DNA of 64,000 nucleotides, from assembly GCA_963837175.1 (NCBI GenBank), contig CAWIMJ010000016.1, positions 106,474 through 170,473 of the forward strand, written 5' to 3'. A model generated the notes under the pieces. That model had not been told where the DNA came from and ran no database searches. It saw only the letters and a list, made by a program, of their open reading frames with translations. The stretch is from an uncultured Nitrososphaeraceae archaeon. Lineage in GTDB: Archaea; Thermoproteota; Nitrososphaeria; Nitrososphaerales; Nitrososphaeraceae. Of the stretch, positions 44,922 through 64,000 are shown one piece after another. A program made the position numbers and the translations under genes. Every line of letters starts with the position of its first letter. The stretch's first letter is position 1.

Positions 44922-45026
44922 AATTATTATTCATCTAATAGAGATTACATGACATCCCAGTGATGGTCATATACAATTTTCATCTGTCATCACAGCATTA
45001 ATAATAACTATTATTTCTTGTCAGAC

Positions 45027-45830: not shown

Positions 45831-45876
45831 CTTCCTAATATAGATGTGATTTAAAATATAGTATCTAGATGTAGAT

Positions 45877-47631: not shown

Positions 47632-47739
47632 GTAGCAAAGATGCTGTGTCAGATAAATTCACGGTTTTTTATACTTTATATGTTTTGTGAAATTAGGATA
47701 TCAGAAATATATTGGTCAGAGATACGTCCTTGTATTAGC

Positions 47740-48522
47740 GATCGTGTTTGGTGATGATGATGTTGTTGTTGTTCTAACCGAATAATTTCTGATAATCTTT
47801 TCTCTTCAGTGCCTTTTGATTTAAGATGTTCTTCATTATTGTTCGTAAATAGAGTAACAAGATTTTTATTCTTATCTGTTCATGCTGTAGATCCATTATT
47901 TTGCACTTTTTCTTTTCACTATTTATAATAAGAGTACATGGCTTTGCTTTGTATTTCTATTTGAGACTTGAAACACAACAACACTATATGTGATGGTCGT
48001 TTCTTAAATTGAAGAATTTACATCCTTTGCAGTACTCTATATCTCATTCAATTGCTGGTAAGTTATTATTTGTAATTTTAGGAAGATTAACCACTTGCTG
48101 TACATCGATACATTTGGTTAATTTGTAAAGGTATAAAAAAATACAATATTATTATATTCTTAATAAAAAAGATTCAGATTTGGTAGTTGTTTTAGCCTCC
48201 AATACTTTTTACAGAATTTAGTTGTCTATGACTTTCTTAGGTTTAATTCAACAACTACTTCTAATGGAATCTTACCTTCAGAAAAGAGTTTTATGCGTAA
48301 GTTGAAAGAGATAGCTGTTGTTCTACATCTTGCTTTTTCTCTTAACGTTGTTGTTCATCTCCTTTGGATCCTTCATTCTTTTCTTCAAATGTTATATTCA
48401 CAATAACTCCTATATCTCTAAATGACATCCTAGCCTCTTTTGCTGATCTCATGTTTGGTTTCATCTTGATTGTAAAAGTCTAGCACAAGTCTTTCTCTTT
48501 CTTGTCTTGTTGTTGTAGACAT
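47740..48522 (-). pseudogene. degraded HTH/coiled-coil protein of a type I recall as multicopy in Nitrososphaeraceae
   Basis: MSTTTRQERERLVLDFYNQ...AKEARMSFRDIGVI...KLFSEGKIPLEV fragments with many shifts and stops; left end approximate. Confidence 0.6.
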
Positions 48523-49047
48523 TGTCTTTTACTATTGTATTTAATTTAATTATTCTTACTGAAGCTGTACTAAATGTTATGAAGAATTTCTAAAGCAAAC
48601 AAATTAAAAAGATACAGAAAATAACAGAGCTGCCTACTAAGCCAAAGAAATGTCTCATTAGATAATGAAGATACCAATCATCATGTGGGGGTCAACTTAT
48701 ACATGGAGTTGTTAGTTCATTTAAACTCATGCTCTATCACACCTCGACCAAATATGCAAGTACCTACTGATTGTTTTTAGCCTTCAGGACAACAATTAGA
48801 AAATTGAGAACAAGAATAAAAAATTACAACCACTTTAATATAAGTTGTTATTAAGGAGATTCCTAATCTACTGTTGTAGCTCATTTCTTGTTATTGTTTT
48901 TAATTAAATTTTTCATACTAAAAATATACTTAAGTATAGATATTGGTAGATGCGAATACAAACAGATCTTTAACTCATTAGTATACACATAAATGTGTTA
49001 GGTCATCCTAACCTTATCGTATCTTTTTAAGATACCTATCTATTTAC

Positions 49048-49747
49048 GGCTCTGTTCACTTAATTTTTTCTTTAATAAGCATTCTATTATGCAAATAAAC
49101 AAACTGATTCATCATCCAATTGCTAACATGATGTCCTAGTTTACAGTTATCTCTTTTTCTACATGGAAAATAATCATCAAAACATTCTGTTCTATCTTTA
49201 AAGTATTGAACTGTTCTCTCAATTATGCTTCTGTCATGGTATGAGTGAAATGATGATGTTTTATCTTTGCAAATTTACAAGCATATGGATACCATGTCCC
49301 ACCACTATATCAGTAGAAACTGGGTGCTTTCCATATCTTCTAACTAATTCTTGTAGAAACCGTTCCGGCAACAAGTATGCTTCTCTCAAAAGAAATTCTA
49401 ATACCTAGAATCAGCTTATCTATTGGCTCAATGGCAATCCATAACCATGCATAGTGATTGCCAACTTTAAGTAGTGTTTCATCTATATTATAAATTCAGA
49501 TACTTTTCTCTTATTCTGAAGTATCTTTTTTGGTTTGAAGCGTTGAATCCAATTCCATATCGAAACATGATTCCTTTTTATAAATGGAAACAGGTGTTCT
49601 GATGCTCTTCTGAGTGAAAGGCCTGAAAAGTATAGTAGATGTAGTAGTGCATAGTAGATATACTTTGAAGATGTTCTATTTCTTTTGAGTAGCATAATAG
49701 GGATAAGATACTTTCAGCTATAGATTTAACATTAAGTGAACAGAGCC
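49048..49747 (-). mobile_element. IS6-family insertion sequence with inactivated transposase
   Basis: 17-bp perfect TIRs GGCTCTGTTCACTTAAT (49048-49064 / 49731-49747); perfect 8-bp TSD CTATTTAC; GLSLR, RNHVSIWNWIQ, DET, WLWIAIEP, IERTVQYFKDRTECFDDYFPC. Confidence 0.95.
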
Positions 49748-49874
49748 CTATTTACACAATAAAACCTTAATAATTTTGTCTTCCTCTATCATATTAGCTA
49801 TCATTATTCATCACGGATCTAAATAAATGAATTACATCGATATTCATTTTTAAGCGTAGTGTTTTAACTCAAAC

Positions 49875-51104
49875 CTATAATAAGAGAGTAATAAAGCAGG
49901 CTTCTGGTCTGCATGCAAGCATAACGTTAGAGTTATGCAAGTATATCTCATTCGCTATCTCCTCCGCCGCCACTATCTCCTCCTCCGCCACTATCTCCTC
50001 CTGCCGCCGACTATCTCCTCCGCCGTCCGCCGCTCTTTCCACTCTTCCCGCTATCGCCACTCTTCCCGCTATCTCCTTCGTCGTCGCTATCTGTATCGCC
50101 AGTATCTGTATCTGTATCGCCAGTATCTGTATCAGTAGTTATAGTATCTGTATCAGTAGTTATAGTATCTGTATCAGTAGTTATAGTATCTGTATCAGTA
50201 GTTATAGTATCTGTATCAGTAGTTATAGTATCTGTATCAGTAGTTATAGTATCTGTATCAGTAGTTATAGTATCTGTATCAGTAGTTATAGTATCTGTAT
50301 CAGTAGTCGTGTATTTGCAGCTTTCTTAACACCTATATCTACAGCTTCCTTTACACTTTTACCTTCATGTAGTGCTTGCGACATACCCGCTGAAAATGTT
50401 GGTACAGCATCATAATGACCTAGTCCTTCTTGCTCATCAATATGGTCAGCGGCAATCTTCATTTCTTCAGGTTTCAATGCCATCATATCTAAATCCGGAA
50501 GAGGATTTTTTCCTTCCAAAGAATCTTGATTAGCCACATAATTCATGGCTCTTGTAATGGAAGCTTGGTCGGCGCCAGTTTCCATAGCTATCTTGTGTGC
50601 AGCCTTGTCTATGCGCTGCTTTATTACCGGTGTTTCAGCTGCTTCTAGATGACTGGCTATCTGTACTAATGCGTTTGGTCCAGGTATACCTCTGGCTATC
50701 AGTTGTGCTCCTTGTTTTATAACTTGAGTAAATGCCACCTTATCAACTGTTTGTTTTGCAATATGTAATAATGCTTGTGATACTGGGCCTGTTGGAGATG
50801 AAGTTATCTGTGATTGTATCTCAGTAATTGTTTGCATAGCTTTAAATTTATCCAAGGTCTGGGCTGCTGTTTGCTGAGCTAATTGTATAAGTATCTGTTG
50901 TATATGCACTAAATCAGTACCTGGATTTGAATTTGCCACTTGTTGTGACATCTGTTTAATTATCTGGCCTATACCAACTGTCTCCTGCGCAGAAGCTGGC
51001 ATATGCAGTGTTGAAATGAGAGATATTTTAGTCAATAATATTACTAATAATGCAAAAACTCCTAGTACAGATATCTCTCTTCTAGTGTGCAAACGTATGT
51101 GCAT
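49875..51104 (-). CDS. secreted Gln-rich protein, paralogue of 43589-44921, with Thr/Asp and Gly/Asp/Ser repeat tail (apparent indel ~50310)
   Basis: Signal peptide ending ASA; QIIKQMSQQVANSNPGT matches QIIKQIAQQVATANPGT; tail TTDTDTI repeats then GGGDS repeats; 3' end uncertain. Confidence 0.7.
50122..50307. repeat. 21-bp perfect tandem repeat, 8 full copies plus 18 bp (AGTATCTGTATCAGTAGTTAT)
   Basis: Units start at 50122, 50143 ... 50290; no spacers. Confidence 0.95.
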
Positions 51105-51615
51105 ACGTATGTATATTTAATAAGGATATTGTTTATAAGAATATTTATAAGGATACTAGATGAAAGATTTATTTTCTCTTTATAATAATTACCTAAAAAT
51201 TTTAGCTAGCTAATATTTCAGCAATTTAAAGTTTTATTGTAGTAATGCTCGCTTTTTATTTGTATGATATACTGCCTAACATAATTTTGTATATCTTTTA
51301 AAACCAAGTAAAAGGATTTTTTAAGCATAGTAAACCTTACATATTAAGAAAAATCTGTGAACGAACTTTTGTTAGTTAGTATATTTGACTTAACTTGAAT
51401 ATTTTTTCGAAAATAATTTAATGATATTTCTTTGTCATGGTCTGATATCTAAATAAATGCCTATAAGTTATACGATCAAGTTCAAGAGTTTTATCGATAT
51501 TCCTATTGTAATCATATATCGTTTAATATAATTTTGTAGTGTCTCATGTATATATTTGCTATAATTACATGACGAAAACATAAAATATATTATAAACACA
51601 CATTACAAAACCATT

Positions 51616-52704
51616 GTGGGCTGGTTAGATGAGCCTGGTGCTATTGTAGCAATAGTTGAGCAATAATTGCATTAGTTTCGTCAGTGATTACTGCAATCAT
51701 AACTGCTATTTTTACAAAGAAAAATGAAATGAGACTTAAACATTTAGAAAATGAACTGGCTGAAAAAAAAGCAGAACACGATGCACGTAGAGATTATGAA
51801 TATGAAGCTAGAAAGAGACTTTACCAAGAATGTGAACCTATACTCTTTCAATTTGCAGAATTATCAGAAAGTGCACTTAGACGAATTTATGCACTAGCCA
51901 GAAATGCTAAGGATGGAAATTTAGGTCCTGATAGATATTGGCTTTCTACAGATCATTATTTTATAAGATCAACAATATATCGGTTAATCGCTCCAATGGC
52001 AGCATTTAAACTTCTCCAGCATAGACTGACAAATATAGATCTAAAATTAGATAGATCTATTAATATTCAATATATCCTTGCCAAGATTCTGTATTACACA
52101 TTTTCTAGTTCTCCAGATCTGGCTAGAAGTGATCCTGCTATTCCTTATGATCCTGATCAAATAGGAGCTGAATCAAAAGAGTTTGGAGGAATCTGCAAAG
52201 AGAGAAAGGAGAGCCAAATATCCTGAAAAGTTTTGGTTACAAGGTCTTAAGGTAGGAACAATAGATATACTAGCTGAGACATTAATTGTGTCTGAAAAAG
52301 GAGGTGATTATAATAATAGTCGGATAAAAAGCTTCGGTGAGTTTGAACAGCAATTCTTTAAAAAAAGCGATAATATCGCATCTCAAAACAATAATACATT
52401 TGAGGTATTCTTTACTATTTTTTCATATTTTCATCCTCGAACTAGACCTGTGCTCTGGCGAGTATTAATAACTCAGGCATATCTATACAATGCTATAAAA
52501 AATATACGTAATACTGAGGAAGAATTCAATATTAGCAACTATGATGAATTTGTGAAACTCTTTGAAATAGAAAAGGTAAAATCGAAATGTAATTGGATAC
52601 AGTCCCATGAAGTAGTAACGGATGAAGAATTTAACATACCATTTAAGGCTGCAGAAAACTATCTTAAAACACAATTAACAGATGTGCTTGACTTAATAAA
52701 GTAA
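51616..52704 (+). CDS. hypothetical protein with N-terminal TM and coiled coil (two apparent indels)
   Basis: GTG at 51616, hydrophobic AIVAIV/AIIALVSSVITAIITAIF; ORFs 51684-52226 and 52183-52704 overlap out of frame. Confidence 0.65.
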
Positions 52705-52970
52705 GAACAATTACAAAAGAATAATATAATAAAAAATCAGAATTGATTTTTATCATTTAAGATAAGCTTATCTCTAAAACTTAAAGATCATAATCTCCTG
52801 AAGTAAGGCAATTGCTTATCAATACACAAATGTGATGTAAGAGAATTCATGGTTAGGGTAAATCATTTATTGATGGTTTATAGCAATGACAAAATAGTCT
52901 ATTAGACCGTATATGATATCAAATTCCATGATATATTTATTTTACTCCAATACAGATTTGATTTACAAAT

Positions 52971-53893
52971 ATGGGATTAAGTGAGGAGGATTGGGAAGAA
53001 TTACTTTATGCAATCAAAGACAAGAAATGTACGCCATTTATAGGGGCAGGAGCTTGTGCTCCATGGCTTCCTCTTGGTAAAGATGTAGCCAGAGATTGGG
53101 CAGAGAAACATAACTATCCTTTAGAAGATTCATACCAACTATCAAGAGTTGCTCAATTTTTGGCAATAGAAAAGGGAAATGATTTGTATCCAAAAAATGT
53201 TCTTAGCAGGCTACTTAAAGAAAAAGAACCACCTGATTTCTCTTTAGAAGAACATAGAAATACTCCATATGCTGTTCTAGCTGATCTTAATCTGCCCATC
53301 TATATCACTACAAATTATGATCAATTTATGGAGGCAGCTTTGAAAAGTAAAGGAAAAGAACCTGTAAGTGAGTTTTGTAGATGGAATAATTATGCAGATG
53401 CAGCTGGAATTGAATCTAAACTATTCAAAAAATCTAAATACCAACCAACAGTATCTCAACCATCTAATTTATCATCTTCATGGAGATATAAATACACCTC
53501 AATCCATGGTTTTAACTGAGAATGATTATATTGATTTTATAGTGAGCTCTTAGTAGAGGAGATGATGACAATTCTATACTACCTCCTATTATAAGAAGAA
53601 CTTTTGCAGATACGATCTTATTATTCGTTGGTTATAGCTTAGAAGACATAAACTTTCGTATTATATTCCGTAACATAATTGAAAATTTAGGTGTAAGATT
53701 CCAATTAAGAAGTATAGCAGTTCTTTTACCACCAAAACATCACTCAGACGATAAGATGATAGACCAAGCACAAAAGTATTTAGATCAATACACAAAAAAT
53801 ATGTTCAAGATCCATGTCTATTGGGGATATGCTTCAGAATTTTCAGCAGAGTTACGTAACCGTTGGGATAGATTTAGAAATGCTAAGAAATAA
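52971..53893 (+). CDS. SIR2-like domain protein (SIR2_2 type), copy A (two apparent indels ~53462 and ~53550)
   Basis: PFIGAGA, ITTNYD, YHLHGD, VLTENDY, LLFVGYSLEDINFR. Confidence 0.85.
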
Positions 53894-54294
53894 GTAAACT
53901 ACTCGAAGTTAAGGAAATAGAAGATGTAAGATTGAAAAAGTTCAGCTATTGTAATATTACAATATAACTATAGATGAATCTTGAAGGATACAGAACAAAT
54001 AAACCATCAATTGACCATACTATATAGCTAGAAAATAAATTAGAAACACAAGAAAAAATTATTGAGGTACGTCTTAGAATGTTAATAAGACATTATTTGT
54101 CTTTATCCCTATTAATCATAATCAGCGGTACTCTTACTATTATTTTTCATCAAATCTATGTTTTGTTATTAAGAAAAAAATAAATCATTACTTTTTTTCT
54201 AATTGCAATTATGTTACATTATTTTAGATGGTATAAGTTATCATTAAGACAGTACAGCCGGGATTTTTGAAGAAATGTTTAAATCTTGAAGTTA

Positions 54295-57200
54295 TCAGAA
54301 GTTTAACACAAATTTACTATTGATCTGTTTTATTTGGTTTGTTGTAGCATTTATAGGAGTGACAGAATCAGAGGCAGAGCTGACTACATATACAATATTT
54401 GTTTTTGGATTAGCGTCTATATATTCAGAACTTCTAACATGGATTAATGGAATATCATCTACTACTTTGTTTGTTTTACCATCTATGACAGAGACAGAGC
54501 CAGATGTAATTCCAGTAACTTGGATTATAGCTAGAGCCTGCTACATATATCATGTTTGTTTGTGGATTAATAGATATGTCAGAAGCAGCTGCTGATCTAA
54601 TGTAATATCATCTACTACTTTGTTTGTTTTACCATCTATAACATAGAGACAGAGACTGATATCCTAATACATATATCATGTTTGTTTGTGGATTAATAGA
54701 TATATCAGAAGCAGGCTGATCTAATGTAATATTATCTACTACTTTGTTTGTTTTACCATCTATGACAGAGACAGAGCCAGAGAACTAGAGCTAGAGTTAG
54801 AGCCTGCTGCATATATCATGTTTGTTTGTGGATTGATAGATATGTCAGAAGCCTGCTGATTAATGTAATATTATCTACTACTTTGTTTGTTTTACCATCT
54901 ATGACAGAAATAGAGTCAGACTATATCCTAATACATATATCATGTTTGTTTGTGGATTAATAGATATATCATAAGCAGGCTGACCTAATACCTCAGGAGT
55001 AGACTGACCTAATGTAATATCATCTACTACTTTGTTTGTTTTACCATCTATGACAGAGACAGAGTCAGAGACAGAGCTAGAGTTAGAGCCTACTGCATAT
55101 ATCATGTTTGTTTGTGGATTGATAGATATGTCAGAAGGTTTCTTTATTCTAATATTATCTACTACTTTGTTTGTTTTACCATCTATAACAGACAGAGAGT
55201 CAGACTTTAAGTTATCCACATATATCATGTTTGTTTGTGGATTAATAGATATCTCAGAAGGTTCTTCGCCTACTTTGATTCCAGGTGGCTCAGGTCCTGC
55301 AATACTTGCTTCTATTCTATTCGCCATACCGTTTATAATATAGACAGTATTAGAATCAAAATCAGATACATATATCATGTTTGTTTGTGGATTAATAGAT
55401 AAATCAATTATGTTTTTGTCTACCGAAATATCAACAACCATTGTCTTTGTTTTACCATCTATAACATAGACAGAGTCAGAGCCTGCTGCATATATCATGT
55501 TTGTTTGTGGATTAATAGATATGTCAGAAGCAGGCTGATCTAATGTAATATCATCTACTACTTTGTTTGTTTTACCATCTATAACAGACAGAGCCAGATG
55601 TAATTCCAGAATTGGATTATAGTTAGAGCCTGCCATATATCATGTTTGTTTGTGGATTGATAGATATCTCAGAAGCAGGCTGAATCTAATGTGATATCAT
55701 CTACTACTTTGTTTGTTTTACCATCTATGACAGAGACAGAGTCAGAGAAGGAGCTGGAGTTATGCCTACTGCATATATCATGTTTGTTTGTGGATTAATA
55801 GATATGTAAGAACGACTCTTATTTAGTAGTATAATATCATCTATTACTTTGTTTGTTTTACCATCTATAACATAGACAGAGTCAGAGAAATGAGCTGGAG
55901 TTATATGCCTACTGCATATATCATGTTTGTTTGTGGATTAACAGATAAATCTATTATGGTTTTTTCTACCGGAATATCATCTACTACTTTGTTTGTTTTA
56001 GCATCTATAACAATAGACAGAATTGACGAGTTATAGCCTGCTGCATATATCATGTTTGTTTGTGGATTAATAGATATGTCAGAAGCAGGCTGATCTAATG
56101 TAATATTATCTACTACTTTGTTTGTTTTACCATCTATGACAGAGACAGCAAGTCAGAGCCTGTTACATATATCATGTTTGTTTGTGGATTAACAGATATC
56201 TAAGAAGGAGTTCGACCAAGAAGAATAGCTTCAGAATGAGTAAAAGGATTGAAGAAAAAGAAAACGATCATAGATACTGCAATTGCAACAACGGCAATAG
56301 AAGGAATTATAATCATTCGGTGGCGCCTAGATTTCCTGTTTCTTTCATATTCTTTCCATTTTAGATTAGAAGCTTTAATTGGTCCAATAAGCCGATCGTG
56401 TGTTATTTCATACCATTTAGCGCCAGAACGTCGTTCTGCTCTGATGAGATATTTACTTTCTAAAATACTGATTACTTTATCAATCTTCTCTTCACTTATT
56501 GATTTATTGATTCCTTGAATAAACTGAGCGAATGCTCCCCTGTGTACAAATGCTCTAGTTCCGCTGGAAGTAATTAATTTTTCTTCGCATAATCTTCTAA
56601 CAATGCCTTCGCTTACATTAGTGTGCGTCGTTGCATCATAAATGGATCTCTCATAAAATTCTTGTAATGCACTATCAACATCTGCTAAAGCTTTAAGACG
56701 AGATTGAGCAGTTTGGGGTTTTCCTAAAGATATTTCCTGCCACCATCTTTGGCAAACTATTTGAAGATGAATTGGTTCTACAAATTCGCCATTTATTTGA
56801 TGCGGTTTGCCACTAAAAGGATCCTCTACTTGTATCTTCAAAAGCTCTTCAACTAACATTTCTATTTGAATATCTATTTCTTGTTCAGAGTAATTTTTTA
56901 AAGTACTGTTGCTTAAGCCTTTGAGTGGACCTTTAATTGCTAATAAGAGCAGCATCCTTTCCCAAACGCTCCAGTCTGAATCTTGCTCTCAATCTACCAG
57001 GAAGAATTCCTGCAAAGTGATCGAGTTCAGCTAAATAATCTTCTCTAATAACAAATACAATTCGTAACAAAGGGTTTTCTTCCAACGCCTCTGTAATTTG
57101 CTCAAAAAAGTCCTCTTGCTGTTTTCTCCATGTAGTACCCGGATAGAAATTGAATAATTCCTCGAGTTGATCAAATACAAGTGCCTGGGCTTTGATCTTG

Positions 57201-57682
57201 TTATTTTTGTTATTGTCATTAGTAATAGGAAAATAATCTTTCAAAAATGAAGAGAGGCGTCTGTTCAAGAATAATAATTTAGAATCAATTTCTGGACTTA
57301 GACTTTGAAGAGCATTGAGCATGTAGGAATTTATTACTTCTACGACTGATGACGAAGACGAAGACGATGATATATTAATATTCATAACGAGAGGATCGAA
57401 TTCTGATTTGGTATCAGAAGCAATACCGACCCTGGCAGTAGGTAAAACTTGAAATCCATACTTTTCTAATGTAGGAGCAACTTTAGCGTTAAATATGGAT
57501 GTCTTTCCAGCTCCCGATTGAGCATATATCAAAACGAGTTTGTGGCCAAGAATAAGTGATACAATCTCATCAGTTTCATCGTCTCGGCCAAAGAATCGTT
57601 TTTGGTCTTCAATATCTCGCTTAAATGGACGTGGTCCAATATATGGATCAATTATTATTTGTTGCTTTCTTTCAGTATTCAT
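54295..57682 (-). CDS. nSTAND1-type NTPase - transmembrane helix - 14 YVTN-type beta-propeller blades (multiple apparent indels)
   Basis: PYIGPRPF, FFGRD, Walker A AQSGAGKTS, Walker B LVFDQLEELF, IREDYL, PIHLQIVC, YEITHDRLI, TM IIIPSIAVVAIAVSMIVFFFF, then SDISINPQTNMIY/SVIDGKTNKVV repeats. Confidence 0.85.
54330..56205 (-). repeat. 14 YVTN-type repeats (~120-160 bp) with very high DNA identity in strand-coding parts
   Basis: catgtttgtttgtggatt occurs 13 times between 54551 and 56190, plus a degenerate copy at ~54393. Confidence 0.92.
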
Positions 57683-57722
57683 AATGTAAAAATCATCATT
57701 TCTATCACTTATTGCTAAGCTA

Positions 57723-58646
57723 TTACGCCCTAGCACTTTTGAATTTATCCCATCGCTGACGTAGCTCTGATACAAATTCGGAACTATCACCCCAGTATAC
57801 ATGCAATTCATACATATCTTTTGTATATTGAACTAAATACCTTTCTGCTTCTTCTTTTCTCTCTGTTGTAAGTTGCGGTGGCAGTTGTACTGCTATACTA
57901 ATTTCTCGGCCCATAACATCAAGTAAACTCATAACACCTTGAAATATAACGCGGAAGGTTATGTCCTCAAAGCTATAACCAATAAACAATAATGAAGATG
58001 TTGCTAATGCAGTGCGTATTGGGGATGGTAATGTTAACTTTTCATCATTTTTATTGAGATTAATTACAAAATCAATATAATCTCTCTCAGTTAAAACCAT
58101 GGATCGAGGTATATCTATATCTCCATGAAGATGGTATACTAACGGTTTAGTTTCTGAAGGTTGATATCTTTTCTTTTTATCAAAAGCATATGGCATTTCG
58201 GCCTGTCTGGCATAATTGCTTAGCTTTTCGCTCCATCTACAAAACTCACTTACAGGTTCTTTTCCTTTACTTTTCAAAGCTGCCTCCATAAAGTGATCAT
58301 AATTTGTAGTAATATAGATGGGCAGATTAAGATCAGCTAGAACAGCATATGGAGTATTTCTATGTTCTTCTAAAGAGAAATCAGGTGGTTCTTTTTCTTT
58401 AAGTAGCCTGCTAAGAATATATTTAGGATGCATATCATCTCCATTTTTTATTGCCAAAAATTGAGCTACTTTTGCTAATGGATGCGAATTCTCCAAAGGA
58501 TATCCATATTCTTTTATCCATTTTTCAGCTATATTATCACTAAGCCATGGAGAATAAGCCTCAGGACCTATGAACGGAGTACATTTGTGATTATAGATTA
58601 AATACAGCAATATATCCCATTGGTCATCCATTAACATGGTTGCCAA
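57723..58646 (-). CDS. SIR2-like domain protein (SIR2_2 type), copy B, intact ORF
   Basis: PFIGPEA (degenerate GAG loop), ITTNYD, YHLHGD, LLFIGYSFED; stop 40 nt upstream of the STAND ATG. Confidence 0.88.
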   Translation of the reverse strand: MATMLMDDQWDILLYLIYNHKCTPFIGPEAYSPWLSDNIAEKWIKEYGYPLENSHPLAKVAQFLAIKNGDDMHPKYILSRLLKEKEPPDFSLEEHRNTPYAVLADLNLPIYITTNYDHFMEAALKSKGKEPVSEFCRWSEKLSNYARQAEMPYAFDKKKRYQPSETKPLVYHLHGDIDIPRSMVLTERDYIDFVINLNKNDEKLTLPSPIRTALATSSLLFIGYSFEDITFRVIFQGVMSLLDVMGREISIAVQLPPQLTTERKEEAERYLVQYTKDMYELHVYWGDSSEFVSELRQRWDKFKSARA

Positions 58647-59027
58647 ATAATAGGAAATATTGACCTAAGATTCTATATAAATATACTTGTAATAATTTGC
58701 TCTAAAACTGAGGAACTACCATCTATTATGGCAATCTGCAACAGATTGAAATAACCATTAACATTTTAATTTGCATGTTTTTTTGGTGAATTAAAATTAA
58801 CTGGAGACTTATCATATCCCATTAAGCGGTTAAATCTTAAACTTGAGTTAGTTTTAGCATACAAGAATTTCCAACATCTTACTATAGTCAAATCTGCTGT
58901 TATGTTGGAACAGCCTAAGATGAAACAACAGAAATCGGTTGATCTGATTATTATCTTGTCTAATAATTATGTACATCTAGCCGATATTTTATTATCAGGG
59001 ATGGGAAAAATGAGAGATGCTAATTAT

Positions 59028-59102
59028 GGGCTGGTAGTTCAGGCTGGTAGTAATGCATGCTTCGCAAGTATGTGGTCGCGGGTTCAAATCCCGCCCAGTC
59101 CA
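59028..59102 (+). tRNA. tRNA-Ala(CGC)
   Basis: Acceptor GGGCTGG/CCAGTCC with G3-U70, anticodon arm CATGC-TTCGCAA-GTATG, GCGGG-TTCAAAT-CCCGC; D arm slightly irregular. Confidence 0.88.
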
Positions 59103-59155
59103 CTAATTTAGTGCGATGGAAATACTCGAAGATTTTTGTATTCAATTTTTAATTA

Positions 59156-59294
59156 TTGGTTCCAACTAATTGCCATTTTTAATAAAACAAATTAAAAATT
59201 TGGAACCAAAAATGAAACCAAAAGTTTCAGAAACACCTGTTTTATGGTTCCATTTGAAAATCAATGGTTCCATGAGTTGTTTTTATGGTTTCAA
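59156..59294. repeat. six 10-bp WTGGTTYCAW-like motifs in direct and inverted orientation
   Basis: ttggttccaa 59156, ttggaaccaa 59200, atgaaaccaa 59212, atggttccat 59244 and 59264, atggtttcaa 59285. Confidence 0.7.
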
Positions 59295-59399
59295 AGCTGG
59301 AGCAATTTTATGTAATTCTTATTTACTAAATCATTACTGAAAAGTTTATATTCAATAGTATTCAATAGTGACTATGGAATTAATAAGCTAATGTAGAAG

Positions 59400-60472
59400 T
59401 TGCCAAAAAATATAATTGGAAATGTGTAAACGTCAAAATTAAACCAGAAGATCTACCAATACTTAATCAAAGACTCAAATTATATGGTTTTGAAACATTA
59501 GGTCAATTGGTCAGCGATTTTCTAACTACCAAATTTCCACCAATTACAGAGGATAGACAAATTCAAGCAATGGATAGTAATATACAAAGCAATGGAGTCA
59601 AAACATTAGTAAATGGACATTCGAACCAACCTTTTACAAAAATGTAAATTTGGATGATATGCTCAATTATCTTTTAACTATTCGAAAGCTTCAAAAACAT
59701 GTAAAGGACATAGTGAGTTACTTTCGACGTTTCCGAGATATATTCTTTGGACCTCAGCCTGAGGAGATTCTCCAATTAACCCACCTAAAAGAGCATGGAT
59801 TATACAGGGTATACGTCATTTTGGCAACTACTATTATTATAAAACTAATAATCCAGAATGCAAAGAATTATTGAGAAAATCATCAATCGATATGGTCTCA
59901 ATATTGGCTTGGATATGCATCAAAGGATTTACATTGTAGATGATAATTTTGTTAGCAACAAAGTTAAGCATCTTCTGGCAATTCAAGGAGATATAGGTCT
60001 AACTGTCAAAGTTGGTTTATTTACAGGTTTAAGAGAGGAAGAAATAATATATATTCATAATACAGAACTATGTGGCAATCTCGGAGGTTGTGATTGCAAT
60101 AAACTGCATGTAGTCAATAAACCAAATGGGCTAACCGTTGTTGTTATCAATTGGTTTAGGGGTCACAAAAAATGCTATTTCACTATTTTACCAACCGTTA
60201 TGTGGGAGAAATTTAGCAATATTCCAAACTTCAATCATGTAGATATTGATATTGCTCATAAACTTACAAAGAAAAATGCTAATCTTATGTTTGTAGAATT
60301 AAGAAAAATTCACTATAATATCATGAGAAGAATCATGGATATGAATGAGGCCGACATCTTGGCTGGCCGTGCAAAATCAGTTTCTGCTAAACATTATGCT
60401 ATATATGAATTGGATCGAATTAGCGATGCCTATGTTCAGGCTTGGGCAAAGTTTAATGTATCAACTGTTTAA
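59400..60472 (+). CDS. tyrosine recombinase/integrase (several apparent indels)
   Basis: FTGLREEE (R), GHKKCY (K), LRK, ADILAGR, AKHY (Y); directly downstream of a tRNA; N-terminal half in shifted frames. Confidence 0.8.
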
Positions 60473-60658
60473 GAAATTAATGTTTTACTTAATATGATGA
60501 GAAAAGGATTCAGCTTAAGGGCAGATGTAGTGCTCACATTTCGTGTCGCTTGCGAGAGGCATCTTGTTTACCATAGACTTTCCTCCCGATATTAGATAAT
60601 TAAGCTATCATATAATTGAAACTTAACAATTGATATTGAGCTAATATCATATAGTCTG

Positions 60659-60847
60659 ATGATAATGGTTAAGTCGACAAAACAAACATTTCCCCCAGCT
60701 AAAGGGGACCATATAACTACAATCCAAATCTTGAATTCAACTAGACAGAGATTAAAGTCAGCATCTCGTAAGGACCAAACTTATGATGACAAGATAAATG
60801 AATTATTGGACATGGAAAATAATAGAAAAAATATAACAAAAGATTAA
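60659..60847 (+). CDS. small ribbon-helix-helix-like DNA-binding protein
   Basis: TTIQI-x2-STRQRLK-x6-TYDDKINELLD: strand-helix-helix pattern. Confidence 0.65.
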   Translation: MIMVKSTKQTFPPAKGDHITTIQILNSTRQRLKSASRKDQTYDDKINELLDMENNRKNITKD

Positions 60848-60970
60848 TTTGTTGCTATTAGACACTGTCTTCTGGTACAGCGGATTTATTATCATATTCA
60901 CTGCAGAAACCATGTTATTTACAATATTTTAAAATACTGCATCTGGATCAATGATTTGATCAATTTCGCT

Positions 60971-61180
60971 CTATGTTAGTTTTTGATTATTAAGAGGAGA
61001 TTCTAATTTTCTTTCTAATGCTTTTTCTCTTCGGCTAATCTCTTGTTCTCTTATTCTAAGAGCTTCTTCATAACTTTTTACTTTTTTTGTATAGTCTAAA
61101 AACTCTTTGACAAGCACTTCAAAGTCTTCTAATTTAAATCGCATATAGTAACAATGCATCATCAAGTTCATTGCCTTCAT
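60971..61180 (-). CDS. hypothetical coiled-coil peptide
   Basis: 69-aa ORF, charged helical C-terminus; may be a fragment. Confidence 0.35.
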   Translation of the reverse strand: MKAMNLMMHCYYMRFKLEDFEVLVKEFLDYTKKVKSYEEALRIREQEISRREKALERKLESPLNNQKLT

Positions 61181-61650
61181 TTTTTCTTTGGGACAGAGTT
61201 ACCGTCTGGATGTAATTAATATCTATTACATAGTTCAATCTATTTTTTATATGCATAGTTTCTGGGTGGCATATTTGAGTCAATTCTGTCCCACATCCCA
61301 CCGAACCCAGACCTACTGTTTTTAATACTACAGATGCCTAAAAGCAGAATTAGTTGTAGAAGGATTATCTATCTTCAATAAGTATGGTCTTTATCTGCAT
61401 AACAATATTTTAGTTTGGATAGGAATAGTGTATATGCCCATCTGATTGAAACGGCATATTGCAAGAAGATTTGGTCTTAAAATAGATGTTAATAATACTA
61501 ATTTGACATTGTGCTGAGCGTTTTGGGTCCGATTCGAACGTCAAATATGTTCCGAATCCGACCCGGCTAGTCAACACTGGTTCATACAAAATTAGCTAAA
61601 AAATAAAAGCAAAACATTCTGAGTCATTGGTATAATTTTTAGCCTACTAC

Positions 61651-61944
61651 TCAGATGCTTCCAATTATTTTAGCTGTTTCCTCAGTTGTAAAAGCCTTAA
61701 GAGTTATAGTCCTTGAACTACCTTGTTGGCTTTCAAATGATGGTACAGTTGACATAACTGCCGTATCATCAGGAGCCTCTATAATTGATACACCATCATA
61801 TAGTCCCATTGTGTAGTATGTGGCAACTAATTTCCCTCCTGCTTTTTCTATTATATCTTTAAAAGTTTCAGCACGTTTTGGAGAGCCTTTTAGGTTCTTT
61901 ATTCCTTAATCTGTGAATTTCCATAGAATAATATAGTGTGACAT
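61651..61944 (-). pseudogene. GYD domain protein with premature stop at codon 13
   Basis: MSHYIILWKFTD*GIKNLKGSPKRA...YYTMGLYDGVSIIEAPDD...RTITLKAFT. Confidence 0.8.
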
Positions 61945-62214
61945 ACAGTCTGCAAATTATCAATCAACTATATATAATTACTTTGCACATAATTCGCATT
62001 TGAGCTCAGATTGCAAATTATAATATTTTCAGTTATTATTACTCTCTATTCCATTATTAAACAATTGGTGATATCAAAATAATAATAATAATAATAATAT
62101 AACAGACTGTTATCTTATGATAAATCATAAATTATGTTATATTATAGATAACTACGCAAAAATATCGAAAGTTTGTTTTACTGAAGTATATCATTAACTC
62201 CTAGCTTCTTAACC

Positions 62215-62460
62215 TTGATGATGTACAAACATCAAAATTCAACCTTAGAAATAATAATCGCCACTCTATTTATTGGCACTGTCCTAGCACTCGCAGTTGT
62301 AGTAATTATTACACAAGAAGCAAATGCAGCATCAGCCAGTATGAAAGTCAGTTTCAAACAAACTCAATTGAATAGATGTACTGAGAGTGCAAAATGCAGT
62401 CATACAGGTATAATAACATTTGGCTCAGGAGGAGGTCATAGCAGTCCAGGTAATCATTAG
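62215..62460 (+). CDS. small secreted protein
   Basis: Signal peptide ending EANA; NRCTESAKCSHTG Cys pair. Confidence 0.55.
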   Translation: MMMYKHQNSTLEIIIATLFIGTVLALAVVVIITQEANAASASMKVSFKQTQLNRCTESAKCSHTGIITFGSGGGHSSPGNH

Positions 62461-62711
62461 TCTAGGAGGAAGAGGTCACGGTAATCCAGCATCGTAATAC
62501 ATTCTTCATAAGAGAACTGGATGATTGCTATAATTAGTTTAATTTTATTTCTCTATGACAGCAATTATGAATGATAATAATATCTTAGACAATCAATTTA
62601 TTTGAATTCTCAGACATTGAATAATGTCTTATGACAATATTACCTTCTAAATACTTAGACAATAATGATGTTAAACATCAAATCTACTGAGTTAGATTAC
62701 TACAGTTATCA

Positions 62712-63078
62712 TCATCCTTTCATAAATCCAACAGTAAATCCAGCTGACATACTACCAGTTAATGGAATACCAAAGTTTGTCATTGCTAGAGAGACTGTTG
62801 CACAGGATGGCCATCGATATGCTACCGCTAATACCTGGAATCTGCATAATTGCATTTGAAAGTGTTGTAATAGCACCTTCCGATACTGCTTGAAGTTTAT
62901 TCCAGTTTATGTTAGCTATCTGATTACATTGTAAGATATGCTAATCCAGCTAGGAATAATCCAACTATTACAGCTACTAATTTAATTACTTTCTTTAAAG
63001 CATATCCAATTAGAACACCTACAAAGAAGCCACCTCCTAGAGTAGCGCAGTTGGTCCGAAACTTTCAATAATGTTCAT
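62712..63078 (-). pseudogene. FUN14 family membrane protein, frameshifted
   Basis: GGGFFVGVLIGYALKKVIKLVAVIVGLFLAGLAYL, NINWNKL, GFTVGFMKG. Confidence 0.75.
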
Positions 63079-63419
63079 AATTCTAGATGTTGCTCCTTAG
63101 TTTAGTTGTTCATCATTATGCAATGACTACTACTTTGATACCTTTGTAGTGGACAGTCCTGTATATGGTAATATTAATAGATATGAGCATCCGGGCTATA
63201 TAATGAAAACTTGTTATGGCATATTTCATGCATATTGGATATTGTATATCTATTTGCTTACCTAAGGCTTTGACAATTTGTCTGTTGTAGCATGTAATCT
63301 ATTTTTATCTACAAGAGCTATAGCTTTTGTAGTAGACTTTTCTGTTCAATATTAAGTAGATTAGTCAAAATAATAGAAATGGCATGAGAGATATGTACAG
63401 TATACAAGAGTCATAAATT

Positions 63420-63858
63420 AGTAATAGTAAAGGTGATTGCTGAATGATTTCACAACAACAGTAGTAGGAATTGATGCTATGACTTCTTCAAACAGAATCA
63501 CCTTCTAAAGATGCTATAAATTCTATTTAAAGATTCAATAATTAATGATCCCTTTTATGGAGTTTCAATTGAATCTTTAAATACAATTGCATCATATGCT
63601 ACTTCTAAAATAATATCTGATGACCAAATTAGACTATATGCATACGATACACTGCAATCACTTTTCATTGAAAATAACAAAAACTCTATTTCTTCTATAA
63701 ATGATAAAAGAATTATATCTGCTCTATTGATGACATTTCCAGAATTTACAAAATTTCATAAAAAAGAAACACTTGATATAATTAGGCCATTTGTATCAGA
63801 TAAAAATTGGTATATTTCGCGTTTTTCAATTGCTGCCAATCGGAAAAATTACCAGTAG
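63420..63858 (+). pseudogene. HEAT-repeat-like fragment
   Basis: Open stretch INDPFYGVSIESLNTIA...RPFVSDKNWYIS without a clean start; resembles HEAT-like helical repeats. Confidence 0.35.
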
Positions 63859-64000
63859 TTTAAAGGTAATAGGAACAAATGGAAAGGTAGAAAAGGAAAA
63901 TGATAATGAAAAAGATGCTAAAGGACAAATTAGTTCTGAATCAAAAAAAGAGATAATTGAATTTTTAAAAAATATTGTAAATAAAGAGAGAGACCATAAT

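What the first reader, a model, noticed from the sequence alone, without database searches (positions are those of the whole stretch)
52971..58646. Candidate archaeal NLR-like system: transmembrane STAND receptor with external double beta-propeller plus stand-alone SIR2 effectors
Seen: SIR2-like gene B is followed after 40 nt by a ~1100-codon gene: nSTAND1-type NTPase, basic stretch RNRKSRRHR, one TM helix, 14 YVTN blades. A second SIR2-like gene converges from the other side, and the locus sits between an IS and a tRNA/integrase. Established: STAND NTPases (Avs, NLRs) oligomerise on ligand binding and activate effectors, including SIR2 NADases (Avs variants; SIR2 also acts in Thoeris and DSR); characterised examples have cytoplasmic sensors and usually fused effectors. 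Inference: the positive-inside rule puts the NTPase inside and the propellers outside. The STAND has no N-terminal effector, so it would sense an extracellular ligand (virion, S-layer, neighbouring cell) and signal to a separate SIR2. I know of no characterised system like this in ammonia-oxidising archaea.
Basis: partly seen in the sequence, partly recalled or inferred. Interest (0 to 1): 0.88.

Follow-up and report, generated by a model that had tools for sequence, protein, structure and literature searches.

The report
Broken membrane-spanning NLR-like sensor with SIR2 partner
A soil ammonia-oxidising archaeon carries a probably decayed copy of a widespread, apparently undescribed gene pair in which an NLR-like ATPase seems to span the membrane, with its sensor predicted to face outwards, next to a separate SIR2 enzyme of the NAD-destroying type.

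Summary
On the minus strand lie a SIR2_2 gene (58646..57723), a 40-nt spacer, then an nSTAND1 NTPase, the basic patch RNRKSRRHR, one hydrophobic helix and 14 YVTN blades (57682..54328). A second SIR2_2 gene converges on the plus strand (52971..53893).

The large gene is not open here. Against a 92%-identical intact 1114-aa relative it has 14 frameshifts and one TAG stop just after the helix. SIR2-2 has two frameshifts. A sister soil population (96% DNA identity) has all of these genes open, so this copy is probably a pseudogene; local assembly error is not excluded.

The family-level reading holds:
- A SIR2-family gene accompanies the NTPase in 85 of 88 loci.
- A single hydrophobic helix follows the NTPase in 92 of 108 homologues and 119 of 139 library representatives, always with the basic residues on the NTPase side.
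- Sensors behind the helix swap between YVTN, TPR, WD40, PASTA and others.

The archaeal copies form one clade nested among bacterial ones. PADLOC has no model for the NTPase, and my literature searches found no description of the pairing. Function is untested; complex prediction gave only weak support.

Verdict: new variant of a known kind, interest 0.62.

The parts
57723..58646 (-). SIR2-1: stand-alone SIR2_2-family gene, 307 aa, open. TTNYD lies at 58310..58296 and YHLHGD at 58136..58119.
   Evidence: Pfam SIR2_2 1.7e-27. PADLOC matches only the SIR2 part of ThsA, 1.4e-18. The second His of YHLHGD aligns with KomC H146. Motif coordinates. No indel against the sister population L100.
57683..57722 (-). 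40-nt spacer between the SIR2-1 stop and the NTPase start codon (MNTERKQQ)
56203..57682 (-). nSTAND1 NTPase module, basic patch, single hydrophobic helix and a short linker. The frame is broken by one extra base near 56946. Landmarks: Walker A 57523..57497, Walker B 57181..57152, EITHDRL 56409..56389, RNRKSRRHR 56343..56317, helix 56316..56251.
   Evidence: Pfam nSTAND1 4.2e-20. Kyte-Doolittle 2.82. Coordinates. The base at 56945/6 is absent from contigs of 4 of 4 soil runs and from L100.
56200..56202 (-). In-frame TAG stop. The relative P0006 has Glu at this position, and run X7 reads C at 56202 (giving GAG).
   Evidence: In table 3, run X7 has C at 56202, while the contigs of X2 and X3 keep the window's base.
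54328..56199 (-). 14 YVTN-type blades (two seven-bladed propellers in the model of the intact relative), carrying 13 frameshifts
   Evidence: Frame pieces. 14 DNA repeat copies. Frameshift positions. TIGR02276 1e-46 on P0006. AF2 model and tandem-propeller matches.
52971..53893 (+). SIR2-2: convergent paralogue, broken by two single extra bases at 53463 and 53547. TTNYD lies at 53307..53321 and YHLHGD at 53470..53487.
   Evidence: Pfam SIR2_2 on two pieces, 1.5e-5 and 2.1e-7. 64% protein identity to SIR2-1. Inverted repeats of 313 nt at 87%. An intact 306-aa version exists in L101.
59028..59103 (+). tRNA-Ala(CGC). High similarity to the sister population L100 (96% DNA identity) ends at its 3' end.
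   Evidence: blastn of L100
59650..60472 (+). Integrase remnant: two overlapping frames of 74 and 204 aa
   Evidence: ORFs. Phage_integr_3 6.6e-6, 26.6 bits against a cut-off of 27.
49056..49713 (-). IS6-family transposase remnant in at least three frames
   Evidence: Frames. NCBIfam transpos_IS6 9.2e-7 and 2e-4, both below the curated cut-off. The piece 49056..49274 had no hit.
51684..52704 (+). Gene of unknown family, split into two overlapping frames by one extra base near 52181. It is intact (361 aa) in L101.
   Evidence: No Pfam or NCBIfam hit.

Best explanation
The locus is a copy, probably decayed in this genome, of a conserved two-gene cassette.

Shown by sequence:
- Gene 1 is a cytoplasmic SIR2_2-type protein. 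Here it keeps the Asn and His that NADases of this kind use.
- Gene 2, 40 nt downstream, is a STAND NTPase of the nSTAND1 family with no N-terminal effector. It is followed by a Lys/Arg patch, one hydrophobic helix and a variable repeat sensor, here two seven-bladed YVTN propellers.

Inferred from hydropathy and the positive-inside rule:
- The NTPase sits in the cytoplasm and the sensor sits outside the membrane.

Inferred from how Apaf-1, Avs proteins and other STANDs work:
- A ligand bound by the outer propellers (a virion part, envelope damage or a neighbour's surface) releases autoinhibition.
- The NTPase modules then oligomerise under the membrane and gather the SIR2 protein.
- SIR2 is thereby switched on and depletes NAD+, stopping the cell. 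In relatives the partner is a TIR-SIR2 or a CHAT fusion instead.

In this window the receptor carries a TAG stop just after the helix and 14 frameshifts, and SIR2-2 carries two. Here the system most likely no longer works. Sister populations keep it intact.
For: Architecture:
- Domain and motif calls.
- Intact one-ORF relatives of 1065, 1114 and 1132 aa at 96, 92 and 77% identity.
- The AF2 model of P0006 has mean pLDDT 84.7. Its best PDB match is full-length Apaf-1 (3shf, E 1.1e-29), followed by tandem propellers.

Membrane helix:
- A 19-mer with Kyte-Doolittle mean of at least 1.9 lies 15 to 110 aa after the THDRL motif in 92 of 108 homologues.
- In those, K+R in the 15 aa before the helix averages 6.36 against 0.73 after it. 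All 92 of 92 are more basic before.
- The helix is present in 59 of 65 assessable bacterial loci.
- It is present in 119 of 139 assessable top representatives, and 113 of those 119 are more basic before it.
- Of the four checked members with no such peak directly after the NTPase, three carry cytoplasm-type domains: GAF, Peptidase_S24 and an alpha/beta-hydrolase. The fourth, P0088, was not domain-scanned. Members with the helix carry PASTA, PD40, Ig-like, collagen, FGE-sulfatase and InlB repeats behind it.

No fused effector:
- The median is 14 aa before the PYxGPRPF motif, with a maximum of 37 (91 of 108 carry the motif).

SIR2 link:
- 6 of 6 family loci.
- 53 of 66 bacterial upstream ORFs are SIR2_2. 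Of the 67 scanned members, 20 carry TIR_2, 6 CHAT, 3 EAD7 and 2 EAD11.
- A family HMM finds SIR2 in 85 of 88 loci.
- Two cultured examples carry the pair: the Haliscomenobacter hydrossis plasmid pHALHY02, where the upstream gene is annotated 'SIR2 family protein', and Paraburkholderia caribensis MBA4.

Complex prediction, weak support:
- Score 0.36 against 0.00 for the best of 3 controls.
- That mark was reached by 58 of 80 solved complexes and 2 of 110 mismatched pairs. At 0.60 or under it was reached by only 7 of the 80 and by both mismatches that passed.
- The runs agree in at least 80% of contacts, and partner pLDDT is at least 79.
- My own alignments were used, so these counts hold only roughly.

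Conflict-system context:
- Patchy distribution: 6 of 100 family genomes, 0 of 6 of the same genus, and 0 of 400 across the phylum.
- Neighbours in two of the three archaeal loci examined: SLATT_1/DUF4231, TPR-S and CHAT.
- A tRNA, an integrase fragment and IS remnants lie nearby.

Decay:
- 14 frameshifts and 1 stop. 13 of the 14 lie downstream of the stop. By my own arithmetic, a uniform spread over 1480 and 1872 nt gives P of about 0.0035.
- Contigs of runs X2 and X3 keep the window's base at the stop.
- Indels against L100/L101 number 4 in about 4.4 kb of unique coding DNA, 10 in about 0.9 kb of intergenic DNA and 13 in 1.9 kb of propeller DNA.
- Long housekeeping frames are open at 1121, 1070 and 1056 aa.
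Against: - Nothing has been measured: no membrane topology, no binding, no NADase activity and no phenotype.
- The AF2 model gives the helix region (456-486) pLDDT under 50 and no continuous helix.
- N-glycosylation sequons are not enriched in the presumed outer part: 3 to 11 seen against 9.4 to 13.5 expected.
- Two homologues (P0051, P0080) carry an FHA domain, usually cytoplasmic, behind their only helix.
- Among 39 SIR2 partners the canonical Asn is kept in only 23 and the canonical His in only 21. A neighbouring His is kept in 37. Many partners may therefore not be NADases, or may use other residues.
- Complex support is weak.
- The propeller is tandem-repetitive, which by itself favours both real slippage and assembly error. 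The pseudogene reading is therefore not proven.
- One aminoacyl-tRNA synthetase gene elsewhere in the genome may also be split.
Confidence: 0.55

Rival explanations
1. The frameshifts and the stop are errors of this assembly (a repeat-rich, strain-variable accessory region), and the organism carries an intact, working pair plus an intact SIR2-2.
For: - Contigs of four independent soil runs lack the extra base at 56945 (4 of 4), and some lack those at 53463, 53547, 54517 and 55906.
- The sister population L100/L101 has all frames open.
- 17 of 22 indel events against L100/L101 are extra bases in the window, which is a one-sided pattern.
- Four neighbouring genes are hit at once (IS, the 361-aa gene, SIR2-2 and the receptor), and one synthetase gene elsewhere may be split.
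Against: - One lesion is a substitution giving TAG, and contigs of two other runs keep that base.
- Lesions cluster downstream of the stop, 13 of 14.
- The indels are not in homopolymers.
- Indels are about 12 times denser in intergenic than in unique coding DNA, as expected for real divergence under selection.
- SIR2-1 (924 nt) has none.
- Long housekeeping genes are open.
Confidence: 0.3
2. The pair is not an immune system. It is a surface-protein or signalling module: a YVTN/TPR surface protein whose assembly, or whose signal, is governed by a cytoplasmic NTPase, with the SIR2-like protein acting as a regulatory deacylase, ADP-ribosyltransferase or adaptor.
For: - YVTN repeats are typical of archaeal surface proteins (recalled, not tested here).
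- Canonical SIR2 catalytic residues are absent in 16 to 18 of 39 partners.
- No phage or plasmid link was found in the phage collection.
- PADLOC has no model for the NTPase.
Against: - Partner genes swap among SIR2, TIR-SIR2, CHAT and EAD-bearing proteins. These are the effector and adaptor set of conflict systems (Kaur et al. 2020 and 2021, passages read).
- Sensors are hypervariable.
- Distribution is patchy.
- Neighbours in two of the three archaeal loci examined include SLATT, TPR-S and CHAT.
- The gene decays here while sister strains keep it.
Confidence: 0.15
3. Signalling runs inside-out. The cytoplasmic NTPase, perhaps with SIR2 sensing NAD-related or phage cues, changes the oligomeric state of the outer propellers, for example to block adsorption or change adhesion. 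On this reading the repeat domain is the effector.
For: The receptor has no fused effector. Many SIR2 partners look catalytically degenerate. Surface remodelling is a known defence route (recalled).
Against: In STAND proteins studied so far the repeat domain is the sensor (recalled; also stated in passages of the 2026 STAND preprint). TIR and CHAT partners are typical killing effectors.
Confidence: 0.07
4. The hydrophobic segment does not cross the membrane, and the sensor is cytoplasmic as in Avs proteins.
For: The AF2 model has low confidence there. TPR, WD40 and FHA sensors are common in the cytoplasm. There is no sequon enrichment.
Against: - 19-mer hydropathy is 2.0 to 3.4 at the same place across the family.
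- The charge asymmetry is strict, 92 of 92 and 113 of 119.
- PASTA, PD40, collagen, Ig-like and InlB-repeat domains lie behind the helix.
- Three of the four checked helix-less members carry GAF, S24 or hydrolase domains instead; the fourth was not scanned.
Confidence: 0.05

Closest known systems
Avs5 / AVAST type 5 (SIR2 fused to a STAND NTPase; recalled, and SIR2 in Avs is mentioned in a passage read)
   Same: A SIR2-type effector is coupled to a STAND NTPase with a C-terminal sensor. The expected logic is that ligand-driven oligomerisation switches on NAD+ destruction.
   Different: Here SIR2 is a separate gene. The NTPase is nSTAND1 and has no PADLOC hit. A membrane helix separates the NTPase from the sensor.
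Apaf-1 (PDB 3shf, 3sfz)
   Same: It is the best structural match of the intact relative's model: a NOD module followed by two beta-propellers (E 1.1e-29).
   Different: Apaf-1 is soluble, has an N-terminal CARD and uses WD40 blades. TM-scores over the whole chain are only 0.24 to 0.27, so only the domain folds are alike.
Bacterial NACHT proteins of the 'TM regions' class (Kibby et al. preprint 10.1101/2022.07.19.500537; passages read)
   Same: [quoted passage not shown]
   Different: Those have multiple TM regions, a NACHT module and fused effectors. Here there is one helix, an nSTAND1 module, an outer repeat domain and a separate SIR2 gene.
PCTM and receptor-like TIR-ParA systems (preprint 10.64898/2026.10.19.760177; passages read)
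   Same: The layout is the same: a cytoplasmic NTPase, a type-II single-pass membrane helix, a variable outer domain (TPR, PASTA, cadherin and others) and an effector gene just upstream.
   Different: That NTPase is ParA (SIMIBI class), not a STAND. The effectors named there are SLATT, caspase, CPPC-4h and TIR, not SIR2.
SIR2 NADases of Thoeris (ThsA) and Kongming (KomC)
   Same: The SIR2_2 fold is shared. The window protein aligns to KomC (8.9e-9), including its His146, and to ThsA (5.3e-6). PADLOC ThsA models hit at 1.4e-18.
   Different: Only the SIR2 part of ThsA is matched (model positions 49-238 of 478), with no SLOG domain. The partner gene here is a STAND, not a TIR or nucleotide-signal producer.
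nSTAND1 conflict systems with effector-associated domains (Kaur et al. 2021, PMC8195603; Dore et al. 2024, PMC10907252; passages read)
   Same: The NTPase family is the same (PF20703). Effectors can be separate proteins. Sensors are variable, sometimes diversified, and some are predicted periplasmic.
   Different: Those descriptions couple effector and NTPase through shared EAD or Death-like domains. The passages I read mention neither a SIR2 partner nor a single helix after nSTAND1.
Toll-like receptors (recalled; an analogy of logic only)
   Same: Outer repeat sensor, single-pass helix, cytoplasmic signalling module and separate TIR-type partners.
   Different: There is no homology of the sensor or of the signalling module. 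TLRs have no NTPase.

Membership tests
nSTAND1 (PF20703) STAND NTPase | Match to the family profile above Pfam's gathering score | tested here: met
   73.2 bits on the window's 292-aa fragment and 86.5 bits on intact P0006, against a cut-off of 27.1
nSTAND1 (PF20703) STAND NTPase | Walker A GxxGxGK[ST] and Walker B hhhhDQxEE | tested here: met
   AQSGAGKTS and LVFDQLEELF are in the window. S56, G57, G59, K60, S62, D171, Q172 and E174 are invariant in 36 sequences.
nSTAND1 (PF20703) STAND NTPase | NOD, helical and winged-helix fold with a conserved His (THDRL; the comparison to the plant MHD motif is recalled) | tested here: met
   H428 and D429 are invariant. The best PDB match of the model is Apaf-1, E 1.1e-29.
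nSTAND1 (PF20703) STAND NTPase | An intact reading frame in this genome | tested here: not met
   14 frameshifts and one TAG stop against P0006
Defence-type SIR2 NADase (SIR2_2: ThsA, DSR, KomC) | Match to SIR2_2 above the gathering score | tested here: met
   96.7 bits against a cut-off of 24.5 for SIR2-1. 25.5 and 31.6 bits for two pieces of SIR2-2.
Defence-type SIR2 NADase (SIR2_2: ThsA, DSR, KomC) | Catalytic Asn and His. Their roles are recalled; KomC H146 is inferred from the PDB entry named KomC(H146N). | tested here: met
   Both window copies have TTNYD and YHLHGD, and the second His aligns with KomC H146. Across 39 partner proteins, however, Asn is kept in 23 and His in 21.
Defence-type SIR2 NADase (SIR2_2: ThsA, DSR, KomC) | NAD+ hydrolysis on activation | not testable with these tools
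   Needs an enzyme assay
Avs / AVAST (antiviral STAND) | Effector fused to the N-terminus of the NTPase in one protein | tested here: not met
   A median of 14 aa, at most 37, precede the first NTPase motif. The NTPase starts at a median of residue 4 in 139 representatives, and only 6 start beyond residue 60.
Avs / AVAST (antiviral STAND) | Match to known Avs or bNACHT models | tested here: not met
   No PADLOC v2.0.0 family at E of 0.001 or better for either window NTPase fragment or for the 1100-aa G048 protein
Avs / AVAST (antiviral STAND) | Protection against phage | not testable with these tools
   Needs a challenge experiment
Thoeris | ThsA with SIR2 plus a SLOG domain, paired with a TIR protein ThsB | tested here: not met
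   Only the SIR2 part of the ThsA models is matched (positions 49-238 of 478). There is no SLOG, and the neighbour is a STAND.
Single-pass receptor-like NTPase systems (PCTM type layout) | Cytoplasmic NTPase, one helix, variable outer domain and an upstream effector gene | tested here: met
   Topology is inferred from hydropathy and charge only.
Single-pass receptor-like NTPase systems (PCTM type layout) | The NTPase is a ParA/SIMIBI protein | tested here: not met
   The NTPase is nSTAND1

The most novel reading that the evidence does not exclude
SIR2 plus single-pass nSTAND1 is a large, so far unnamed class of prokaryotic immune receptors that sense danger outside the cell. Candidate signals are a virion at adsorption, envelope damage or a foreign cell surface. 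The receptor would pass the signal through one membrane helix to an NLR-type oligomerisation switch, which turns on a separate NADase. That is Toll-like-receptor logic built on an NLR chassis. Soil ammonia oxidisers would have acquired it once from bacteria and would since have swapped its sensors between YVTN and TPR.
Probability: 0.4. Interest if true: 0.85.

Novelty: new variant of a known kind. Interest (0 to 1): 0.62.

Why it matters
Every STAND or NLR-type immune sensor characterised in prokaryotes, to my knowledge (recalled, and as framed in the 2026 STAND preprint read), detects its ligand inside the cell. A family whose sensor is predicted to sit outside would let a cell react before, or at, genome entry, and would extend the NLR paradigm to surface sensing.

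The family is large. A profile of the NTPase module finds 63,326 cluster representatives at E up to 0.001 and 15,189 at E up to 1e-30. Of the 139 assessable new proteins among the 150 best-scoring representatives listed, 119 have the helix. How far down the list the helix and the SIR2 partner extend was not measured.

Testable members exist in cultured bacteria: Paraburkholderia caribensis MBA4 and the Haliscomenobacter hydrossis DSM 1100 plasmid pHALHY02.

For ammonia-oxidising archaea, whose antiviral repertoire is little studied, the locus shows three things. The module appears to have been acquired from bacteria. It is present in only 6 of 100 sampled genomes of the family. In this genome it is probably decaying, while sister soil populations keep it intact.

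Tried and rejected
1. Island borders. I looked for a direct repeat of the tRNA-Ala 3' end in 44000..64000 and found none. The integrase lies on the far side of the tRNA from the cassette, so I do not claim the cassette rides on that element.

2. N-glycosylation sequon enrichment as a sign of an outer location. None was found: 3 to 11 seen against 9.4 to 13.5 expected in six proteins. This is uninformative at best.

3. AF2 as a check of the helix. The region has pLDDT under 50, so it gives no help.

4. A plain tblastn tiling of P0006 on the window was confused by the repeats. I replaced it with a frameshift-aware alignment.

5. A THDRL-anchored helix count on the bacterial loci failed, because the motif pattern did not match the distant members (26 of 80 assessable). 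I replaced it with a position-window count.

6. Phage collection. tblastn of the NTPase module against 50,697 phage records gave no match.

7. RNA evidence. Six metatranscriptome runs hold small shares (0.06 to 0.09) of the stretch.

8. I considered a PADLOC scan of the flanks of the bacterial loci but dropped it for lack of a baseline.

9. Literature. Nine searches were made and passages of seven papers were read. None describes a SIR2 gene paired with a single-helix nSTAND1. Supplementary tables were closed and not seen. Kibby Table S1 and the Kaur source data list architectures and may bear on this negative.

Full report
**What is at the coordinates**

Under table 11 the region holds no long gene. 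The frames on the minus strand are pieces of 313, 299, 262, 83, 70, 246 and fewer codons.
- The 307-aa frame at 58646..57723 is a SIR2_2 protein (1.7e-27).
- The next frame is an nSTAND1 NTPase (4.2e-20).
- Then come EITHDRL, RNRKSRRHR and the 22-residue hydrophobic run MIIIPSIAVVAIAVSMIVFFFF, with Kyte-Doolittle 19-mer mean 2.82.
- Then come repeats of the SINPQTNMIY...VIDGKTNKVVD type, in ever-changing frames.
- The DNA holds 14 copies of the blade unit (family D3).
- On the plus strand, 52971..53893 is a second SIR2_2 gene in three frames. It is 64% identical to the first over 166 aligned residues, and the two share a 313-nt inverted repeat at 87%.
- tRNA-Ala(CGC) lies at 59028..59103.
- An integrase fragment follows it.
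- IS6 transposase fragments lie at 49340..49713.
- The genome carries archaeal amoA, so 'ammonia-oxidising archaeon' is right.

**Is the big gene broken or mis-assembled?**

Intact versions exist.
- A database search with the middle fragment found near-identical full-length proteins: P0004 (1065 aa, 96%), P0006 (1114 aa, 92%) and P0007 (1132 aa, 77%).
- A frameshift-aware alignment of P0006 on 57682..54328 gives 1014 of 1104 identical residues, 14 frameshifts and one in-frame stop. The stop is TAG at 56202..56200.
- Two metagenome contigs of one sister population (L100 and L101) are 96.7% and 95.7% identical in DNA to the window.
- In them SIR2-1 is open (307 aa). The receptor is open across both the frameshift site and the stop site to the contig end (678 aa). 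The propeller end is open (477 aa), SIR2-2 is open (306 aa) and the neighbouring 361-aa gene is open.
- Contigs of four soil runs from four studies all lack the extra base at 56945, and several lack those at 53463, 53547, 54517 and 55906.

Evidence for real decay:
- One lesion is a substitution, and contigs of runs X2 and X3 keep the window's base there, while X7 has the Glu codon.
- 13 of the 14 frameshifts lie downstream of that stop.
- The indels are not in homopolymers.
- Indels against the sister population are about 12 times denser in intergenic than in unique coding DNA: 10 in about 0.9 kb against 4 in about 4.4 kb.
- SIR2-1 has none.
- Long housekeeping frames elsewhere are open.

Evidence for local assembly error:
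- 17 of 22 indel events are extra bases in the window.
- Four adjacent genes are hit at once.
- The propeller region is tandem-repetitive.
- One synthetase gene may also be split.

I put real decay at roughly two to one over local assembly error.

**Is the architecture conserved?**

SIR2 adjacency in the archaeal family:
- The NTPase fragment finds relatives in 6 of 100 other genomes of the family and in 0 of 6 of the same genus.
- All six loci have a SIR2_2 ORF directly upstream. In two it is fused to TIR, and in one it is split in two.
- The receptor carries YVTN/lactonase-type propellers in four loci and TPR in two.

Helix and charge pattern among homologues:
- In 108 database homologues, 92 have a strongly hydrophobic 19-mer 15 to 110 residues after the THDRL motif.
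- K+R in the 15 residues before it averages 6.36 against 0.73 after it, and all 92 are more basic before.
- The NTPase starts within a median of 14 residues of the N-terminus.
- The domains behind the helix include YVTN, TPR, WD40, NHL, PASTA, PD40, Ig-like, collagen, FGE-sulfatase and InlB repeats.
- Four checked members have no such peak directly after the NTPase. Three of them carry GAF, Peptidase_S24 or an alpha/beta-hydrolase there, and the fourth was not scanned.
- An exception to the tidy picture is an FHA domain behind the only helix of P0051 and P0080.

Bacterial species genomes:
The best 80 are all bacterial: Chloroflexota, Acidobacteriota, Verrucomicrobiota, Pseudomonadota, Bacteroidota and others.
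- 67 of the 80 have a same-strand ORF of at least 150 aa ending within 400 nt upstream. I scanned 66 of them, leaving out one 4.6-kb ORF.
- 53 of the 66 match SIR2_2. Among all 67 scanned members, 20 match TIR_2, 6 CHAT, 3 EAD7 and 2 EAD11.
- With HMMs built from this family, 85 of 88 loci that hold the NTPase also hold a SIR2-family ORF. 73 have one hit, 11 have two and 1 has three. Some double hits are one gene in two frames, and one hit in L031 is the receptor ORF itself.
- Of the three assessable bacterial loci without a hit, two start at a contig end.
- Among 65 bacterial receptors of at least 650 aa, 59 have the helix.

Family size and spread in archaea:
- A profile of the NTPase module alone finds 63,326 representatives at E up to 0.001 and 15,189 at E up to 1e-30 in 1.84 billion cluster representatives.
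- Of the 139 assessable new proteins among the best 150, 119 have the helix, and 113 of those are more basic before it.
- Across the phylum, 0 of 400 other sampled genomes match at 1e-10. Only two of those 400 are from the same family.

**Structure and relatives**
- The AF2 model of P0006 has mean pLDDT 84.7 and pTM 0.52. It shows a NOD-type module, a low-confidence stretch at 456-486 and about 56 strands of propeller.
- Foldseek ranks full-length Apaf-1 first (3shf, E 1.1e-29), followed by proteins with two tandem propellers.
- In a quick tree of 55 NTPase modules, the 13 archaeal or near-window rows form one clade (SH-aLRT 99).
- That clade sits inside a supported group of Acidobacteriota, Verrucomicrobiota and Chloroflexota (96), next to an Anaerolineales row (85).
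- I kept only rows matching at least 300 profile positions at E up to 1e-10, and so dropped the more distant proteobacterial loci. The root is not inferred.
- YVTN and TPR receptors are mixed within the archaeal clade, so sensors were exchanged after arrival.

**The SIR2 partner**
- The closest solved relatives by sequence are a 'USG protein' (7uxt), KomC and ThsA. The second His of YHLHGD aligns with KomC His146.
- Both window copies keep TTNYD and YHLHGD.
- Across 39 partners, however, the Asn is kept in 23 and this His in 21, while the His two residues earlier is kept in 37.
- Long fusions with CHAT-size N-termini mostly lack the canonical His. In part of the family the SIR2-like domain may therefore be an adaptor rather than the killing enzyme.
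- Complex prediction for the SIR2 protein with residues 1-455 of the receptor gave weak support: 0.36 against 0.00 for the best of three controls (with the caveats quoted in the For line).

**Context**
- Next to the archaeal pairs lie SLATT_1/DUF4231 and TPR-S genes (L019) and CHAT and TPR-S genes (L014).
- One relative (L102) has TIR-SIR2, then SIR2, then the receptor. Two SIR2 ORF hits recur in 11 of 88 loci, which makes the window's second SIR2 less odd.
- Cultured examples are the Haliscomenobacter hydrossis plasmid pHALHY02 and Paraburkholderia caribensis MBA4.
- In pHALHY02 an annotated 'SIR2 family protein' is followed by a 550-aa NTPase with the helix, and then by two separate WD40 proteins with hydrophobic N-termini.

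**Comparison with what is known**
- PADLOC v2.0.0 has no model that matches the NTPase, and the SIR2 matches only the SIR2 part of ThsA.
- nSTAND1 was named by Kaur et al. 2021 in systems coupled through Death-like or EAD domains.
- Dore et al. 2024 describe nSTAND1 and NACHT targets of diversity-generating retroelements, some predicted periplasmic.
- Kibby et al. note NACHT proteins with multiple TM regions that may sense periplasmic signals.
- A 2026 preprint describes ParA NTPases with the same receptor-like layout and an upstream effector gene.
- None of the passages I read pairs SIR2 with a single-helix nSTAND1. Supplements were closed.
- I therefore file this as a new variant of a known kind: a STAND conflict system with a separate effector. 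The variant features are the single-pass topology and the near-obligate SIR2 partner.

**Verdict**

Interest is 0.62, because the locus itself is probably dead while the family it points to is large, coherent and testable.

Noticed in passing
window 50046-50339 and 50286-51104 (minus strand): Ten copies of a 21-nt tandem repeat would encode a Thr/Asp-rich heptad run (TDTDTIT...) in one minus-strand frame. They lie at the end of a 272-aa ORF that has a hydrophobic N-terminus and no Pfam or NCBIfam hit. GC rises to 0.41 here against about 0.32 around it.
   Followed up: partly
window 51684-52704 (plus strand); L101:4147-5232: A gene of unknown family is split by one extra base near 52181 in the window but intact (361 aa) in the sister population. 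It sits beside SIR2-2 in both, so it may belong to the cassette's neighbourhood.
   Followed up: partly
L102:515-5626: A three-gene version of the cassette: TIR-SIR2 (473 aa), then a SIR2 (323 aa) whose canonical His is Leu, then the receptor. This suggests a degenerate SIR2 acting as an adaptor.
   Followed up: partly
L128 (Haliscomenobacter hydrossis plasmid pHALHY02, 732-7709): A split form of the system: SIR2 family protein, a 550-aa NTPase with the helix, then two separate WD40 proteins with hydrophobic N-termini. The sensor may act in trans outside the membrane.
   Followed up: partly
L019:1802-4490 and L014:10937-14001: Archaeal relatives of the cassette lie next to SLATT_1/DUF4231, MAP3K_TRAF_bd/TPR-S and CHAT genes. 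These loci look like small conflict-gene islands in Nitrososphaeraceae.
   Followed up: no
G000:C6:15702-17364: A class-I aminoacyl-tRNA synthetase match is divided between a 729-aa frame and an adjacent 71-aa frame. This may be another frameshift, which bears on assembly quality.
   Followed up: no
window 60001-64000: Only 12% of this stretch is covered by stop-to-stop frames of 150 codons or more, the lowest value in the window. It is either non-coding or holds further broken genes beyond the integrase.
   Followed up: no
window 55762-54279 against L101:5-1479: The propeller DNA is 92.6% identical to the sister population, while the flanking genes are 95 to 97% identical. The sensor part diverges about twice as fast, through relaxed constraint, diversifying selection or repeat shuffling.
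   Followed up: no
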